A stretch of DNA of 64,000 bases from Patescibacteria group bacterium. GTDB lineage: Bacteria > Patescibacteriota > Minisyncoccia > UBA6257 > 2-01-FULL-56-20. Both the position numbers and the translations under genes were made by a program. The notes under the pieces were generated by a model. That model worked only from the letters and a program-made list of their open reading frames with translations. It was not told the origin of the DNA and made no database searches. The DNA lies in assembly GCA_024654525.1 (NCBI GenBank), contig JANLHI010000002.1, positions 16,496-80,495 on the forward strand, given 5' to 3'. Shown piece by piece: positions 33,619 to 53,670 of this stretch (position 1 is its first letter; each line of letters opens with the position of its first letter).

Positions 33619-33947
33619 TTGCCCCCACACCAAATTGATATGTTCTACCTCTACGTTTTAAAAAGTAAAAAAGACTCTGCACGGGAAATCAGCCGACTTA
33701 TCCGCCATAGCTGGCTCCAGCGGTGACGCAAGGAGGTAGCGAAGGTGGAGTCCGCATTTCGCCCCGCCACCTACCCGGAAACCGAGCAGAAAAATATCCA
33801 CTTCCTTTTTGAAAGAAAAAATCGGTCACGCGCAAATCCGAAAAGCAAAGAATATTTTTCTTTGGGTGGTGTTTAGGATGTTATGAGGACTTCCTCACTA
33901 CTCGAAGGGGAGCGTAGAATGTTACTATCTATCTATAGTATATTAGG

Positions 33948-47601: not shown

Positions 47602-47922
47602 ATGGATCAATCAGCTGACAAAGAGTTTCTCGAATATCTGGTTAAGTCATTAGTGGATCATCCTGAAGACGTAAAAGTTGACCGCAAGGTTGACGAAATG
47701 GGAGTGCTTCTCTCACTTCGGGTAAATCCCTTGGATATGGGCCAGGTAGTCGGACGCCAGGGCGCAACCGCGAAAGCGATTCGCTCATTGCTCCGGATTG
47801 TGGGCATTAAGAATAACGCCCGCGTAAATCTCAAGATTGAGGAACCGGAAGGCAGTACGCGTCCCCCGCGCACTCATGGTGGCGAAAGCCGTCGTGATGG
47901 TGCAGGAGAAGGGAATTACTAG
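47602..47922 (+). CDS. KH-domain RNA-binding protein (YlqC/UPF0109-like) with an RG-rich tail
   Basis: The GxxG loop VVGRQGATAKAIRSLL is present. The position after rpsP is conserved. Confidence 0.75.
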   Translation: MDQSADKEFLEYLVKSLVDHPEDVKVDRKVDEMGVLLSLRVNPLDMGQVVGRQGATAKAIRSLLRIVGIKNNARVNLKIEEPEGSTRPPRTHGGESRRDGAGEGNY

Positions 47923-48094
47923 TATAGTTTTGCTCTTAAACCACCTCGCTCCCTTACGGGAGTGAGGTGGTTTTGTTTTTCCGGGAAGAGAATGAGAGAT
48001 TGACTGCGTACATAGAATTTGTTATTTTATATGCCATCTGCGAGTCGGATGGCGCCACTCAGCAATTATTATTTATTAATTATACGGAATCTTT

Positions 48095-48664
48095 ATGCTT
48101 GCCTATACCGATCTCAAAAAAGGAGCATTGTTTGTTATGGATGGAGCGCCCTATGAGGTGCTTGATTCTCATTTTCTGCGTATGCAACAGCGAAAAGCCG
48201 TGGTACAAACAAAAATTAAAAATCTTGTTACGGGAAAAATTGTTGATCGAAATTTTCAGCCGAGTGATAGTTTCGAAGAGGCGGAAGTCGAGAAGAAGTC
48301 TGCAGTGTTTATTTATATGAATCGCGGAGAGTTTTGGTTTCATGAAGAGGGTAATCCAAAAAATCGCTTTATATTAAAAGAGGACGTCCTTGGGGAAAGC
48401 GGAAAATTTTTGAAGCCAAATACTTCAGTGGAGACGGTGCTTTTCGAGGAAAAGGTAATTGGAGTAAAACTTCCGGTAAAAGCCGATTTTAAGGTTGTCG
48501 AAGCGCCACCTGGGGTAAAGGGAAATACGGCGCAAGGCGGTACAAAAGTCGCCACGCTGGAGGGCGGCGCGAAGATTGCGGTACCACTTTTCGTAAATGA
48601 AGGGGATGTGGTGCGTGTGAACACGGAGACCGGAGAGTATGTTGAGCGCGTTGAAAAAAATTAG
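48095..48664 (+). CDS. efp: Elongation factor P
   Basis: The protein is 189 aa with the KOW-like N-terminus; GAPYEVLDSHF...KIKNLVTGK precedes the conserved lysine loop. Confidence 0.9.
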   Translation: MLAYTDLKKGALFVMDGAPYEVLDSHFLRMQQRKAVVQTKIKNLVTGKIVDRNFQPSDSFEEAEVEKKSAVFIYMNRGEFWFHEEGNPKNRFILKEDVLGESGKFLKPNTSVETVLFEEKVIGVKLPVKADFKVVEAPPGVKGNTAQGGTKVATLEGGAKIAVPLFVNEGDVVRVNTETGEYVERVEKN

Positions 48665-48751
48665 AGCGTGATTAGGGAAATCGGGACATTTTTATTTTTT
48701 TGAAAACATTCTGCAGAACGCGAGAAGGTTATCGCAGTGCGATTACATAGC

Positions 48752-50062
48752 ATGAAGCAAGGAACGGCAGTTAAGAAAAAAAGTGTATTCGTAGCAATGT
48801 CCCGCCGTCGCCAACCTGCGCTTCGCGTGCCGCCAGGATATCCTTTGGCGACGCACGGCTGGAGGTTTCGGCAAGGCGAGGGCTATGGCGGGCAAGCCGG
48901 AGGAGCTAAAGATTCAAAATCGAAGCGTGTATTTGTTGCAATGTCTGGTGGTGTTGATTCGAGTGTCGCGGCGTTGCTTCTTAAGCGGCAGGGGTATGAC
49001 GTGACCGGCGTATTTATGCGTTGTTACAACCTCGATGGATGTGCCGTACGTGATGCGGAAGACGCACGGCGTGTGGCAGGGCGTTTGCATATTCCTTTTT
49101 ATGTGTGGGATTTTGAAAAGGAATACAAAAAGCATGTAATGCATTACATGATAGACGGTTACCGTCGCGGTATTACTCCGAATCCGGATGTAATGTGCAA
49201 TAAAGAGATTAAATTCGGGTTATTTTTCGAAAGAGCTATGGCGTTGGGTGCGGATTATGTCGCAACAGGACATTACGTGAAAATTCGGAAATCAAAAATA
49301 AAAGATAAGAATGTGTATAAGCTTTACCGTGCGAAAGATAACCGCAAAGACCAATCGTATTTTCTTTGGACGCTGACTCAGAGACAGCTTGCACATTGCC
49401 TTTTCCCCATAGGGGAGTATCTCAAATCCGAAGTCAGAACGGTTGCGCGTCGTGCGGGGCTTGCAACTGCCACAAAAAAAGATTCACAGGGGATTTGTTT
49501 TCTTGGAAAATTTTCACTGAAGGATTTTCTCAAAAAACACATTCGCGCACGACGAGGGAAAATCGTGAATATATCGGGCGTAGAGATGGGAATACACGAT
49601 GGAGCGGTTTTTTATACGATAGGACAACGACACGGATTTAATCTCAATAACGTAAATCGTGAACTGGGAATTGCGAATCAAGGCGAAACAAAACCCTATT
49701 ATGTTGCGGGAAAAGATATAAAGAATAATCTGATTATTTTGGCGGAAGGGGGGAACAATCAGTCGCTTTATAAAAAAGAAGTGTCGCTTGCCGAAGTTAA
49801 TTATATTCATCCAATTTCTGATTCTCGATTTCCCATTTCCGTACGCGCGCGAGTTCGGTATCGTCAGCCACTTGCAGAAGCGCGGATTATACGCGGTAAA
49901 ACAAAAAATAAACAAAAGGGCGAGAAAATACCTTTGCCCCCCCATTTTTCTTTGCGCTTCACTCAACCTCAAAAGTGTATTGCGGAGGGACAGTCGGCAG
50001 TATGGTATTCGCCACGAGGAGAAATGCTAGGAGGTGGGATAATCGTTTCAGCAGGGAAGTAG
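48752..50062 (+). CDS. mnmA: tRNA-specific 2-thiouridylase MnmA, with a roughly 45-aa in-frame GC-rich insertion at the N-terminus
   Basis: PP-loop VFVAMSGGVDSSVAA. The insert separates a duplicated KxVFVAMS segment from the true PP-loop. Confidence 0.85.
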   Translation: MKQGTAVKKKSVFVAMSRRRQPALRVPPGYPLATHGWRFRQGEGYGGQAGGAKDSKSKRVFVAMSGGVDSSVAALLLKRQGYDVTGVFMRCYNLDGCAVRDAEDARRVAGRLHIPFYVWDFEKEYKKHVMHYMIDGYRRGITPNPDVMCNKEIKFGLFFERAMALGADYVATGHYVKIRKSKIKDKNVYKLYRAKDNRKDQSYFLWTLTQRQLAHCLFPIGEYLKSEVRTVARRAGLATATKKDSQGICFLGKFSLKDFLKKHIRARRGKIVNISGVEMGIHDGAVFYTIGQRHGFNLNNVNRELGIANQGETKPYYVAGKDIKNNLIILAEGGNNQSLYKKEVSLAEVNYIHPISDSRFPISVRARVRYRQPLAEARIIRGKTKNKQKGEKIPLPPHFSLRFTQPQKCIAEGQSAVWYSPRGEMLGGGIIVSAGK

Positions 50063-50086
50063 CCCTCAAAAGATGTTTTACTTTTT

Positions 50087-50926
50087 GTGAATCCACACGA
50101 TTTGACGTTTCCGTATATCGGAGGCATAATAGACCCCTATATGGCAGAAGAAATAAACAATACAGGGTATCCACAACCTGCAGCGGTGGAACTCGATGAT
50201 GCAACCCGCGAAATGATAGAAGCGGGTGTCTTTTACGGAAAAAGGAAAAGTAAGACGCATCCGCGAATGAAGGCGTCGATTCTTGCAAACAGAGGAGGAG
50301 TGGAGATTTTTAATCTTACAAAGACATCGGACGAGCTTGCTCGTGCATTAAAGTTTTTGAAAGAACGGGTTGTAAAGGGAGAATTGGTTCTCTTCGTGGG
50401 TACACAACCTGCGGCACAAGATTCCATTCGAACTCTTGCGGACTCATTCCAAATGCCTTTTGTGGTAAATCGATGGGTTGGTGGAGCGCTCACCAACTTT
50501 AAAGTGGTATCCAAGCGTGTGGAATATATGAAGAAGATAAGAGCCGGACTTTCCTCTCATGCATTCGACAAATATACGAAGAAAGAAAGACTTGGTATTG
50601 AGCGCGAGCTTGAACGCTTGAACGAATTGATGGGGGGATTCGAAAACATGCCCCACGTTCCTGCGGTTCTTATGGCAATCGATCCGTTGGTGCATATGAC
50701 CGCGATTCGCGAAGCTCGTACGTTAAATATTCCCATCATTGCGTTTGCGGATACGGATGCCGATCCAAATCTTCTTACATATGCAGTGCCGGGAAATACA
50801 AAATCAAAAAAGAGTATTGATTGGTTTTTGAGTAAAGTGAAAGACGCTTTCGAAGAAGGCCGTCGTGAGGTACAATCAGTACCAAAGGTGGAATCTTCGG
50901 ATTTGGAACCCGCGAGCGAAGAATAA
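50087..50926 (+). CDS. rpsB: 30S ribosomal protein S2
   Basis: REMIEAGVFYGKRKSKTHPRM and NRWVGGALTNF match S2. The N-terminal start is uncertain; the ATG at 50144 is an alternative. Confidence 0.85.
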   Translation: MNPHDLTFPYIGGIIDPYMAEEINNTGYPQPAAVELDDATREMIEAGVFYGKRKSKTHPRMKASILANRGGVEIFNLTKTSDELARALKFLKERVVKGELVLFVGTQPAAQDSIRTLADSFQMPFVVNRWVGGALTNFKVVSKRVEYMKKIRAGLSSHAFDKYTKKERLGIERELERLNELMGGFENMPHVPAVLMAIDPLVHMTAIREARTLNIPIIAFADTDADPNLLTYAVPGNTKSKKSIDWFLSKVKDAFEEGRREVQSVPKVESSDLEPASEE

Positions 50927-50990
50927 CGCGACGCTTCTTGGTTTGTATAATAAGTGTTCCGAACTTGTTATAATTAATAATATTATTTAT

Positions 50991-51437
50991 ATGAGCTCTG
51001 TTGATGCGGTTCAAAAATTAAGAGAAGCAACGGGTGCAGGTGTGATGGAGTGCCATCGTGCGATTAAAGATGCGAACGGTGATTTTGATAAAGCGGTTGC
51101 GATTATCGGTGAAAGGGGACTCTCTAAAGTGGAAAAACGTTCGGGAAGAGAAACGGGTGCGGGATTGGTGCATTCATATGTGCATAATGAGCGTATTGGC
51201 GTATTACTCGACATTCGCGCGGAGACCGATTTTGTGGTGCGTTCCGAGCCGTTCCGTGCGCTTGCACACGATCTTGCCATGCAACTTGCCGCAGTGGGGG
51301 CGAAAGATGTTGACGAGTTTTTGGGACAGCCATACATCAAAGACGAGAAGAAGACGATAAAAGAGGTGATAGGAGAGGTAATCGCAAAAGTAGGGGAGAA
51401 TGTTCAAATAAAGCAGTTTTATCGTATCGAGGTTTAA
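50991..51437 (+). CDS. tsf: Elongation factor Ts, short form
   Basis: VQKLREATGAGVMECHRAIKDANGDFDKAV matches the EF-Ts N-terminal UBA-like signature. About 148 aa. Confidence 0.8.
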   Translation: MSSVDAVQKLREATGAGVMECHRAIKDANGDFDKAVAIIGERGLSKVEKRSGRETGAGLVHSYVHNERIGVLLDIRAETDFVVRSEPFRALAHDLAMQLAAVGAKDVDEFLGQPYIKDEKKTIKEVIGEVIAKVGENVQIKQFYRIEV

Positions 51438-53298: not shown

Positions 53299-53670
53299 CT
53301 GATATACTCGCAAAGCCTCGCTTTTTCCCGCAGACAAATTCCTTTGGGCATTAAACCATTTGTTTCATTTTTGCCCCGCCCGCCAAGGCAAATGGCGGGC
53401 AGGTCGGACGCCATGCAAACTAAGAAGTTTGCGTGGCGTTCCTCGCGAGCCGAAATAATAAAGCCCAGGCAATAGTGTCTGGGCTTCCTCTTTAATTCGT
53501 TGAAAGTTTTTTATGTGGGGACTCACAACCCCTTGAAAAGAACAAAACGAAAAGAATGGATTGGTGGAGGAGAGTTGCTATGCTCTCCTCCACCCGACCG
53601 AACCTCACAAGAAGTTTAGTCGTCTCCATTGCCTTTCGGCGTGCCGGATTTACGCAAACCCGACGAAAAC

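What the first reader, a model, noticed from the sequence alone, without database searches (positions are those of the whole stretch)
48783..48944. A GC-rich palindromic element inserted in-frame in mnmA, with a flanking 19-bp target duplication
Seen in sequence: GTGTATTCGTAGCAATGTC (48783-48801) and GTGTATTTGTTGCAATGTC (48926-48944) bracket a 124-bp GC-rich insert containing CCCGCC...GGCGGG and GTCGCCAA...TTGGCGAC inverted repeats. The insert is a multiple of 3 nt. It adds about 45 aa (RRRQPALRVPPGYPLATHGWRFRQGEGYGGQAGGAK...) before the MnmA PP-loop and duplicates the KxVFVAMS segment. Inference: a MITE-like or REP-like element inserted with target duplication and was tolerated as an N-terminal extension. 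Alternatively, the true start lies after the insert.
Basis: seen in the sequence. Interest (0 to 1): 0.6.

Follow-up and report, generated by a model that had tools for sequence, protein, structure and literature searches.

The report
Hairpin repeat element inside mnmA
A small GC-rich hairpin-forming repeat sits in frame at the start of the tRNA-thiolation gene mnmA of a Patescibacteria genome, next to a duplicated copy of the enzyme's first strand; the same arrangement recurs in dozens of distant relatives, and the hairpin belongs to an apparently undescribed repeat family found in other genes and even other phyla.

Summary
The second repeat is at 48927-48945. The repeat period is 144 nt, or 48 codons. 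The 125 nt between the repeats is not itself a multiple of 3.

The insert is a copy of a roughly 45-nt GC-rich hairpin element. It consists of a 5' arm, a 3' arm and a tail GGGCA(A/G)G(C/T)NGG. This copy also carries an extra 67-nt hairpin nested in its loop.

It is not a private insertion. At least 25 divergent Patescibacteria MnmA genes have the same layout: strand beta1 copy, hairpin, basic linker, second beta1 copy, PP-loop. All are in frame.

Related hairpins occur in several other places:
- twice more in this window, both intergenic, one of them weak
- in the C-terminal domain of other mnmA genes
- in a serine hydrolase and in ribosomal protein S5
- beside tRNA genes
- as multi-copy intergenic repeats in the PVC phyla (Kiritimatiellia, Verrucomicrobia, Lentisphaerae)

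Neither Rfam nor the literature search returned a match.

Flanking duplications of 19-54 nt recur at several unrelated insertion sites. However, the two mnmA copies are saturated at synonymous sites and both are conserved at the protein level. The event is therefore old, and copy 1 is not free to drift.

This is a new variant of a known kind, closest to Rickettsia palindromic elements. The mechanism of duplication is inferred, not shown.

The parts
48752..50062 (+). mnmA ORF (tRNA 2-thiouridine(34) synthase), 436 aa from ATG 48752. An in-frame GTG lies at 48737.
   Evidence: ORF; identical to an NCBI MAG protein named MnmA from a Patescibacteria group bacterium, with Pfam PF03054, PF20259 and PF20258.
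48783..48801 (+). Repeat copy 1. It encodes (S)VFVAMS, an upstream duplicate of strand beta1, and abuts the 5' arm of the hairpin.
   Evidence: Conserved at the amino-acid level across 17 loci.
48802..48814 (+). 5' arm of the type-B hairpin element (CCGCCGTCGCCAA; the stem starts with the C at 48801).
   Evidence: R2 hit 48795-48906, 51.3 bits, E = 7e-11.
48815..48881 (+). Extra 67-nt GC-rich hairpin nested in the loop of the element. It is absent from the otherwise near-identical element of locus L001 and contains TTGGCGACG, which is complementary to the 5' arm.
   Evidence: Its resemblance to an inverted copy of the element is not significant.
48882..48906 (+). 3' arm (GCTATGGCGGG) and conserved tail (CAAGCCGGAGGAGC) of the element. 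It encodes YGGQAGG.
48907..48926 (+). Basic linker (AKDSKSKR region) between the element and copy 2.
   Evidence: Identical to the L001 linker; 80% identical to that of L008.
48927..48945 (+). Repeat copy 2. It encodes (R)VFVAMS, the beta1 strand that is contiguous with the PP-loop.
   Evidence: AlphaFold places strand E59-63 here with pLDDT above 90.
48944..48961 (+). PP-loop codons SGGVDS.
   Evidence: invariant in homologues.
53369..53413 (+). Second member of the same hairpin family in the window (CCCCGCCCGCC-AAGGCAAAT-GGCGGG-CAGGTCGG). It is intergenic, downstream of an ORF whose translation reads like a HAD-family hydrolase (judged from its sequence only; no family scan was run).
   Evidence: (weak R1 hit). 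No flanking duplication.
33687..33754 (-). Weak candidate third member (…AGCTATGGCGGATAAGTCGG), with extra sequence in its loop. Intergenic.
   Evidence: (20.2 bits, E = 0.03).

Best explanation
The feature is a copy of a small (about 45 nt) GC-rich palindromic repeat element. It lies in frame between the first beta strand of MnmA and its PP-loop.

An insertion at this position would normally separate beta1 from the ATP-binding loop. Here the beta1 codons are present twice, so the downstream copy restores the contiguous VFVAMS-SGGVDS unit. Translation starts at the original start codon upstream. It reads through copy 1, the hairpin-encoded peptide (…YGGQAGG…) and a basic linker, which adds 48 residues in front of the catalytic domain. 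The window's copy has additionally acquired a 67-nt hairpin in its loop.

The element belongs to a family with two sequence types that share the tail GGGCA(A/G)G(C/T)NGG:
- Type A: CCCCG…CTTCGGGAT…CGGGG
- Type B: CCCGCC…GCTATGGCGGG

The family is scattered in coding and non-coding DNA of Patescibacteria. Type B also occurs as a multi-copy intergenic repeat in PVC phyla.

Shown:
- family membership
- recurrence of the same architecture in many MnmA lineages
- strict frame conservation
- the age of the duplication
- amino-acid constraint on both copies
- nucleotide-level constraint on the paired positions of the hairpin

Inferred:
- that the element is, or was, mobile
- that the flanking duplication arose at insertion (staggered cuts or template switching giving 19-54 nt duplications)
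- that the patchy distribution reflects repeated precise loss between the direct repeats plus occasional transfer by recombination
For: 1. Recurrence.
- 9 of the 120 best MnmA homologues carry an insert plus a duplicated VFVAMS.
- An exhaustive profile search adds about 11 more.
- A metagenome DNA scan adds 10 more loci.

2. Frame.
- In 18 loci the period from copy 1 to copy 2 is 24, 25, 26, 27, 28, 43, 48 or 57 codons.
- It is never out of frame and never interrupted by a stop.

3. Family.
- R1 and R2 find members in the mnmA C-terminal domain (L071, L085, L109, L129), a Ser_hydrolase (L041), ribosomal protein S5 (L044) and an unnamed ORF (L089, L098).
- They also find members in a 5' UTR (L153), beside tRNA-Met (L004) and tRNA-Leu (L092), and at window 53369-53413.
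- The PVC copies match the window's 5' arm TCCCGCCGTCGCCAA, although that arm was not part of the search pattern.

4. Hairpin.
- 90% of cells are paired, against at most 54% when partners are slid.
- Three pairs show compensatory changes.
- Third codon positions inside the stems are invariant (GGG, ACG/GCG, GAT). Third positions in the unpaired tail vary synonymously (CAA/CAG, GCN, GGN).

5. Flanking duplications abut the element at unrelated targets.
- L121: 54 nt, z = 15.
- L159: 48 nt, z = 12.5.
- L092: 25 nt, z = 7, peptide YTSITTGNI / YTSMTTGRI.
- A tRNA-Leu 5' fragment (z = 2.1, p about 0.06, so marginal) and a tandem duplication of the tRNA-Met 5' end beside the element.
- L157 has copy-E-copy-E-copy, as expected from unequal exchange.

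6. Patchy phylogenetic distribution.

7. Window against L001.
- About 60 of 65 nt are identical from the 3' arm to the end of copy 2, and third positions are 100% identical over the last 36 nt.
- Third-position identity is only 34-40% in the adjoining mnmA codons.

8. Structure and start.
- AlphaFold gives residues 1-53 pLDDT below 50 and places beta1 at copy 2.
- L003 has ATA in place of the only possible internal ATG, and protein P0312 has Ile at that position.
Against: - No transposase, RAYT or other candidate enzyme was identified.
- Copy number is low: 2-3 in 64 kb here, and no other copy in about 190 kb of flanks of the first 12 loci apart from one in L004.
- Many family members have no flanking duplication: mnmA C-terminal copies, Ser_hydrolase, S5, the window's intergenic copies and most PVC copies.
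- In mnmA the two repeat copies are no more similar in DNA within a genome than between genomes. A target-site duplication can no longer be demonstrated there.
- Old selfish copies should decay, yet the hairpin stays conserved and copy 1 stays under purifying selection. This points to some host-level constraint that this explanation does not supply.
- 15 of 24 true type-A hits are in mnmA. That may be search bias, because the pattern was derived from mnmA copies, or it may be a real functional link.
Confidence: 0.6

Rival explanations
1. The hairpin is a host-functional cis-acting RNA or DNA module rather than selfish DNA. It could be a processing, stability or autoregulatory signal for transcripts linked to tRNA metabolism. 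The in-frame peptide would be a by-product.
For: - Paired positions are conserved beyond what the coding needs, in insertions whose flanks are saturated at synonymous sites.
- All examined copies in or next to genes are in the sense orientation.
- It occurs at two different sites of mnmA and directly upstream of tRNA-Leu and tRNA-Met genes.
- One copy sits in a 5' UTR with its tail forming GGAGG 8 nt before a GTG.
Against: - Most MnmA genes of close relatives lack it.
- It also sits in a serine hydrolase, in S5 (in a different reading frame), and in convergent intergenic DNA in this window.
- Types A and B have different loops, so no common ligand or anticodon-like loop is evident.
- There is no Rfam match.
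- The fold energy of the window copy is ordinary for its composition.
Confidence: 0.2
2. The extension is a functional protein feature: an N-terminal module with a second beta1-like strand and a glycine-rich loop. It is maintained for MnmA function, and the DNA hairpin is incidental.
For: - Both copies keep the V-x-V-A/G-M-S pattern despite synonymous saturation.
- Copy 1 and copy 2 co-vary at the amino-acid level within genomes (0.856 against 0.762, permutation p = 0.0008).
- The tail codons vary synonymously while keeping G-Q-A-G-G.
- The frame is always kept.
Against: - The same nucleotide hairpin is found untranslated or in another frame elsewhere.
- Third positions in the stems are frozen, which protein selection does not explain.
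- AlphaFold predicts no structure for residues 1-53. The alignment is shallow for that part, however.
- Most relatives do without the extension.
Confidence: 0.12
3. The true mnmA start lies after the insert. Copy 1 and the hairpin would then be an untranslated leader or a decayed remnant.
For: - Gene callers placed the start inside or after the insert in two relatives (P0022, P0078).
- At another gene (L159) the upstream copy is separated from the real start by a stop codon.
Against: - In the window the only in-frame ATG after the insert is the M of VFVAMS. Starting there would remove beta1.
- L003 has ATA at that codon, and protein P0312 has Ile there.
- All 18 loci keep the frame open from an upstream start.
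- Copy 1 is under amino-acid constraint.
Confidence: 0.06
4. The segment is skipped or removed, either by translational bypassing between matching take-off and landing codons as in T4 gene 60, or by RNA splicing.
For: Matching sequences flank a structured GC-rich gap.
Against: - There is no stop codon after the take-off site.
- The frame is always preserved, which skipping would not require.
- The Ser codon of copy 2 is AGT or AGC in L009 and L165 while copy 1 has TCC. The Met codon is ATA in L003.
- Both copies and the tail are under codon-level constraint.
Confidence: 0.02

Closest known systems
Rickettsia palindromic elements (RPEs)
   Same: Both are short palindromic repeats inserted in frame into unrelated housekeeping genes. 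Both are translated as a conserved peptide that the host protein tolerates (description in PMC10969869). Here the same frame (SLRDxTGQAG) is used at three different coding sites.
   Different: - RPEs are about 100-150 bp and confined to Rickettsia. This element is about 45 nt and occurs in Patescibacteria and PVC phyla.
- No sequence relationship to RPEs was tested.
- The long flanking duplications seen here are, as far as I recall, not an RPE feature. That point was not checked in a paper.
- The copy number per genome looks low.
REP / REPIN sequences mobilised by RAYT (TnpA-REP) transposases
   Same: - Both are imperfect GC-rich palindromes of 20-45 nt.
- Both are multi-copy and mostly intergenic in the PVC genomes.
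- Composite arrangements with neighbouring hairpins are seen in Kiritimatiellia.
   Different: - REPs are extragenic by definition and are not known to create duplications.
- No RAYT gene was looked for or seen.
- REP families are normally species-specific, whereas this sequence is nearly identical across phyla.
[quoted passage not shown]
   Same: The element is non-coding-sized, its arms are inverted repeats, direct repeats flank several copies, and it forms in-frame fusions with host ORFs (for MITE properties).
   Different: - MITEs have target duplications of fixed short length set by the parent transposase. Here the duplications range from 19 to 54 nt and are often absent.
- No parent IS is known.
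- At about 45 nt it would be smaller than described MITEs.
IS1634-type insertion sequences with long, variable direct repeats (from my own knowledge, not checked in a paper here)
   Same: Insertion is accompanied by target duplications of tens of base pairs and variable length.
   Different: Those are full-length IS elements with a transposase gene. No relationship to this hairpin was shown.
T4 gene 60 / yeast-mitochondrial byp translational bypass elements
   Same: A structured insert in a coding region is bracketed by matching sequence.
   Different: The defining features were tested and not met: no stop codon after the take-off site, take-off and landing codons that do not always match, and a frame that is always preserved.

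Membership tests
MITE | Terminal inverted repeats | tested here: inconclusive
   The two arms of the hairpin are inverted repeats. They make up almost the whole element, however, and a 3' tail of about 10 nt lies outside them.
MITE | Target-site duplication of fixed, family-specific length | tested here: not met
   Flanking duplications are 19, 25, 48 and 54 nt where present, and absent at many copies.
MITE | Derived from an autonomous IS with matching ends | not tested
   No transposase gene flanked by the arms was searched for. None was noticed in the loci.
MITE | Multiple dispersed copies per genome | tested here: met
   There are 2-3 copies in this 64-kb window. One Kiritimatiellia MAG has three contigs with copies. 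L004, L006, L042, L050, L092 and L157 have two each.
REP/REPIN | Short imperfect palindrome, extragenic | tested here: not met
   It is a palindrome, but this copy and many others are intragenic and translated.
REP/REPIN | Associated RAYT transposase in the genome | not testable with these tools
Rickettsia palindromic elements | In-frame insertion in unrelated genes, encoding a conserved peptide | tested here: met
   Insertion sites are the mnmA N-terminus, the mnmA C-terminus, Ser_hydrolase and an unnamed ORF. The peptides are SLRDxTGQAG and YGGQAGG.
Rickettsia palindromic elements | Sequence homology to the RPE families, and a Rickettsia host | not tested
   The hosts are Patescibacteria and PVC phyla. 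Homology to RPE families was not tested, and the element is about a third of RPE length, so I treat it as an analogue, not a member.
Programmed translational bypass (gene 60 type) | Matched take-off and landing codons, a stop after take-off, and a gap not constrained in frame | tested here: not met
   Ser codons are TCC against AGT or AGC in L009 and L165. The Met codon is ATG against ATA in L003. There is no stop. All 18 periods are multiples of 3.
MnmA (tRNA 2-thiouridylase), host gene | PP-loop SGGxDS preceded by beta1, and the three Pfam domains | tested here: met
   Precomputed Pfam domains PF03054, PF20259 and PF20258 are listed for the identical protein. SGGVDS is present. The AlphaFold model has pTM 0.82.
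Known RNA families (Rfam 15) | A match to any curated covariance model | tested here: not met
   There are no hits over the hairpins at E up to 1 or at gathering score.

The most novel reading that the evidence does not exclude
The roughly 45-nt hairpin could be an undescribed kind of bacterial mobile or templated-insertion element. Its integration would duplicate 20-55 nt of the target. That is far longer and more variable than classical transposase footprints, and closer to staggered integration or template switching at stalled forks.

Such duplications would let the element survive inside essential genes near their 5' ends, by regenerating the interrupted segment (mnmA beta1, tRNA 5' halves).

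The element's near-identity between Patescibacteria and PVC phyla would imply recent cross-phylum spread, or a conserved host factor that reads it. The unexplained purifying selection on the upstream beta1 copy would then reflect either exchange between occupied and empty alleles or a real function of the duplicated strand.
Probability: 0.25. Interest if true: 0.8.

Novelty: new variant of a known kind. Interest (0 to 1): 0.6.

Why it matters
Small palindromic repeats that become part of proteins are well documented mainly in Rickettsia. Here a comparable phenomenon appears in the Candidate Phyla Radiation, whose reduced genomes are thought to carry little repetitive DNA.

The element sits right beside the ATP-binding loop of an enzyme needed for accurate decoding of Lys, Glu and Gln codons. 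The way the gene survives is by duplicating the strand that must touch the PP-loop. That is a clear example of how an insertion next to a catalytic motif can be rescued.

If the long flanking duplications are made at insertion, they point to an integration mechanism not covered by the known families. The near-identical hairpin in PVC bacteria raises the question of what maintains or spreads a 45-nt sequence across phyla.

On the practical side, these inserts cause wrong start calls and inflated protein lengths in MAG annotation.

Tried and rejected
1. BLASTN of the insert against the window found no other copy. The second member at 53369-53413 was found only later with the covariance models.

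2. Two of the three word-index protein searches were wasted. A short N-terminal profile returned only truncated MnmA fragments without inserts. A doubled insert-peptide profile found no candidates.

3. Homologues annotated as starting at MSGGVDSS were checked for hidden out-of-frame inserts (L010, L011, L012). None was found; the annotated starts are gene-caller choices.

4. The idea that the nested 67 nt is an inverted second copy of the element scored z of about 3.8. It stayed within the range of the shuffles, so it is not claimed.

5. The idea that the duplication extends into the basic linker was tested. There is no within-genome excess of identity.

6. Hits of the type-B 20-mer in viral contigs are, apart from one (L183), read by eye as glycine-rich nucleotide-binding loops of phage terminases encoding YGGQAGGGKS/T. 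No family scan was run on them. I treat them as a coding coincidence.

7. Most GC-rich hits of both DNA patterns lack the 5' arm and were discarded as chance.

8. Translational bypass, splicing, an intein and an assembly artefact were considered and rejected. The reasons are frame conservation, codon mismatches, size, and independent assemblies from many samples.

9. An anticodon-arm mimic for MnmA autoregulation was considered, because the type-A loop contains UUC. It was dropped because UUCG loops are common and type B lacks it.
Full report
**What is in the window**

The ORF 48752-50062 (+) is mnmA. Its product is identical to an NCBI MAG protein named tRNA 2-thiouridine(34) synthase MnmA from a Patescibacteria group bacterium. 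It carries the three MnmA Pfam domains.

GTGTATTCGTAGCAATGTC lies at 48783-48801. The start-to-start spacing is 144 nt, exactly 48 codons. The 125 nt between them is not a multiple of three, but the added length is.

Both inverted repeats are present. The segment is 63% G+C in a 43% window and contains the most GC-rich 125-mer of the 64 kb. The frame stays open: MKQGTAVKKKSVFVAMS-RRRQPALRVPPGYPLATHGWRFRQGEGYGGQAGGAKDSKSKR-VFVAMSGGVDS. Rfam has no match. The fold energy of the 163 nt is ordinary for its composition.

**The same architecture in many relatives**

Among the 120 best MnmA homologues, about 110 begin M-(basic residues)-VFVAMSGGVDSS. Nine carry an insert between two VFVAMS-like segments, or are annotated as starting inside one.

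I fetched DNA for eight of these. Every one has this layout: basic N-terminus, beta1 copy 1 ending ATGTC, a GC-rich hairpin, a basic linker, beta1 copy 2, then SGGVDS.

An exhaustive HMM search with the N-terminal profile found about eleven more at the protein level. A metagenome scan with an internal DNA pattern added ten further mnmA loci.

Across 18 loci with DNA, the period from copy 1 to copy 2 is 24, 25, 26, 27, 28, 43, 48 or 57 codons. It is never out of frame and never interrupted. Eight different lengths, all multiples of three, argue that the segment is translated.

In L003 the only possible internal start (the M of copy 2) is ATA. Protein P0312 likewise has Ile at that position. Translation must therefore begin upstream.

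Homologues annotated as starting at MSGGVDSS hide no out-of-frame inserts.

**Anatomy of the element**

Two sequence types occur.
- Type A (for example L003, L008, L100): ATGTC-CCCG-N3-AAATCC-CTTCG-GGATT-N3-CGGGG-CA(A/G)G(C/T)NGG. It encodes S-P-x-K-S-L-R-D-x-T-G-Q-A-G-G.
- Type B (window, L001, L005): CCCGCC…GCTATGGCGGG-CAAGCCGGAGG. It encodes …YGGQAGG.

They share the G-rich 3' arm and the tail. Each covariance model weakly detects the other type.

The window's copy equals the L001 copy plus a 67-nt GC-rich hairpin (48815-48881) in the loop. L004 similarly has an extra hairpin relative to L003. I could not show that the nested part is an inverted second copy.

For 26 type-A copies, 90% of cells pair in the proposed stem, against at most 54% when partners are slid. 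Three pairs show compensatory changes.

Reading the alignment by codon position, third positions inside stems are frozen: GGG never GGN, ACG/GCG, GAT, CTT. Third positions in the unpaired tail vary freely but synonymously: CAA/CAG, GCN, GGN. The hairpin is thus constrained as nucleic acid, and in mnmA the tail is constrained as protein.

**It is a dispersed family, not an mnmA-only feature**

The type-A model and scan find copies in several contexts:
- in the C-terminal barrel of other mnmA genes, for example NVNWIS-PKQSLRDATGQAG-EEPKLPLKIKAKIRYRHQ in L085, whose N-terminus is uninterrupted
- in an unnamed 490-aa ORF (L089, L098)
- in a 5' UTR, where the tail supplies GGAGG before a GTG (L153)
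- abutting tRNA-Leu(CAG) (L092)
- upstream of tRNA-Met (L004)
- in apparently non-coding DNA (L077, L084, L096)

The type-B scan of species-representative genomes found the hairpin in a Moraniibacteria serine hydrolase, in frame as ALLRQGYGGQAGG. It also found it in the N-terminal extension of Kaiserbacteria ribosomal protein S5, in another frame as AEAMAGKPAA.

Unexpectedly, it also appeared as an intergenic repeat in Kiritimatiellia, Verrucomicrobia, Opitutia and Lentisphaerae. One Kiritimatiellia MAG has copies on three contigs. Those copies match the window's 5' arm TCCCGCCGTCGCCAA even though only the 3' part was in the search pattern.

The window itself holds a second member at 53369-53413. 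It is intergenic, after an ORF that reads like a HAD-family hydrolase by sequence only. A weak third lies at 33687-33754 on the minus strand.

Rfam has no family for any of these. Full-text searches for the sequence, the peptide, or CPR palindromic insertions found nothing relevant.

**The flanking duplication**

Duplications that directly abut the hairpin recur at unrelated targets:
- 54 and 48 nt at the locus shared by L121 and L159 (z = 15 and 12.5). There the read-through frame is closed by a stop.
- 25 nt in L092 (z = 7; peptide YTSITTGNI / YTSMTTGRI).
- A diverged 23-nt copy of the tRNA-Leu 5' end upstream of the hairpin that abuts the intact tRNA. This one is marginal (16 of 23 by eye; z = 2.1, p about 0.06).
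- A tandem 52-nt duplication of the tRNA-Met 5' end beside another copy.
- L157 has copy-E-copy-E-copy.

Other members have no duplication: mnmA C-terminal copies, the hydrolase, S5, the window's intergenic copies and most PVC copies.

Long and variable duplications are therefore a frequent but not universal companion of this element. A natural reading is that insertions in essential genes survive only where a duplication regenerates the interrupted piece. That explains their position near 5' ends. In mnmA it explains why beta1 is doubled, since the PP-loop must follow beta1 directly.

**Age and constraint in mnmA**

Between copy 1 and copy 2 of the same genome, 45 codon pairs differ only synonymously and 18 differ non-synonymously, mostly V/I/F/L, out of 102 pairs. 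At four-fold-type codons encoding the same residue, the third base is identical in only 20 of 58.

Within-genome DNA identity of the copies (0.756) barely exceeds between-genome identity (0.722). Amino-acid identity does exceed it (0.856 against 0.762, permutation p = 0.0008). Examples are VVVAMS/VVVAMS, VFVGMS/VFVGMS and IIMAMS/IIIAMS. The linker shows no residual similarity to the N-terminal tail.

The duplication is therefore old in each lineage, and both copies have been held by protein-level selection. This does not fit a merely tolerated N-terminal extension, and I have no shown explanation for it. Two possibilities remain. One is recombination between occupied and empty alleles, which would keep copy 1 continuous with a working beta1. 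The other is a structural role for the extra strand.

AlphaFold, with an alignment that is shallow for this part, leaves residues 1-53 below pLDDT 50. It builds beta1 from copy 2, residues 59-63.

**Distribution and transfer**

On a neighbour-joining tree of the catalytic body, insert-bearing proteins are scattered among insert-free ones. That fits repeated precise loss between the direct repeats, repeated gain, or both.

The window and L001 proteins are 56% identical. Yet the DNA from the 3' arm to the end of copy 2 is about 60 of 65 nt identical, with every third position identical over the last 36 nt. Third-position identity drops to 34-40% immediately downstream.

That block has therefore been exchanged far more recently than the genes diverged. 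L008 has a type-A hairpin but shares the linker sequence of the window, which suggests that hairpins can be replaced within an existing scaffold.

**Conclusion**

It is wrong in implying a private, recent and neutral event.

The closest described analogue is the Rickettsia palindromic element. This family is shorter, occurs in different phyla, and is often accompanied by 19-54-nt duplications that fit no defined MITE or REP mechanism.

Translational bypass, splicing, a downstream start and an assembly artefact are contradicted by the data.

Three things remain open: which enzyme or process moves the hairpin, what keeps it nearly identical across phyla, and why the upstream beta1 copy is conserved.

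Noticed in passing
window 53369-53413 (+): A second member of the same hairpin family (CCCCGCCCGCC-AAGGCAAAT-GGCGGG-CAGGTCGG). It lies in convergent intergenic DNA and is followed by a separate hairpin (ACGCCATGCAAACT…AGTTTGCGTGGCGT). It has no flanking duplication.
   Followed up: partly
window 33687-33754 (-): A weak candidate third member (AGCTATGGCGGATAAGTCGG tail), with extra sequence in its loop. It is intergenic. R2 scores it 20 bits, E = 0.03.
   Followed up: partly
L157 6562-6703 and L163 21-162: An mnmA with two hairpin elements in tandem and three beta1 copies: IIVAMS-E-VIVAMS-E-IVIAMS-GGVDSS. This is as expected from unequal exchange between the direct repeats.
   Followed up: partly
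L004 2597-2805: A hairpin element lies upstream of tRNA-Met, together with a tandem 52-nt duplication of the tRNA's 5' end and its leader. A third short tRNA-5'-like fragment abuts the element. In the same locus, an ORF with a 23S_rRNA_IVP domain lies between pheS and pheT.
   Followed up: partly
L006 2939-2977 (within mnmA, C-terminal end): A more AT-rich relative of the hairpin encodes ASTFDKSTVDKSED. It is inserted before the conserved MLGGG motif of an mnmA that also has the N-terminal element.
   Followed up: no
L001 10202 onward (protein P0021, 471 aa): This MnmA has a further GC-rich in-frame insertion about 30 codons after the PP-loop (…CWSDDASLGPFDALRVAPR…). It may be another palindromic insert.
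   Followed up: no
proteins P0253, P0288, P0304: Other MnmA N-termini carry different long extensions, for example …KQPFDPAQGKANTPLKRKVFVAMSGG. PFDPAQGK-type peptides look like translations of yet another GC-rich hairpin family.
   Followed up: no
L180-L188 (viral contigs): The 20-mer TATGGCGGGCAAGCCGGCGG also encodes YGGQAGGGKS/T. By eye this looks like the nucleotide-binding loop of phage terminases, and no family scan was run. It is a source of false positives for DNA pattern searches. Only L183 has the full hairpin.
   Followed up: yes
L014, L029, L054 (one Kiritimatiellia MAG): The type-B hairpin is embedded in a composite of several GGCGGA-type hairpins (TTTTCCGCCATAGGCGGATCC on both sides). 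The arrangement resembles mosaic REP clusters.
   Followed up: partly
window 47602-51437 and loci L001, L004, L008, L010, L012: The gene order around mnmA is conserved across these Patescibacteria: rpsP, a KH-domain protein, efp, (a small ORF), mnmA, rpsB, tsf. The window's ORFs in this stretch were named by eye from their translations. Pfam annotation exists for the other loci.
   Followed up: no
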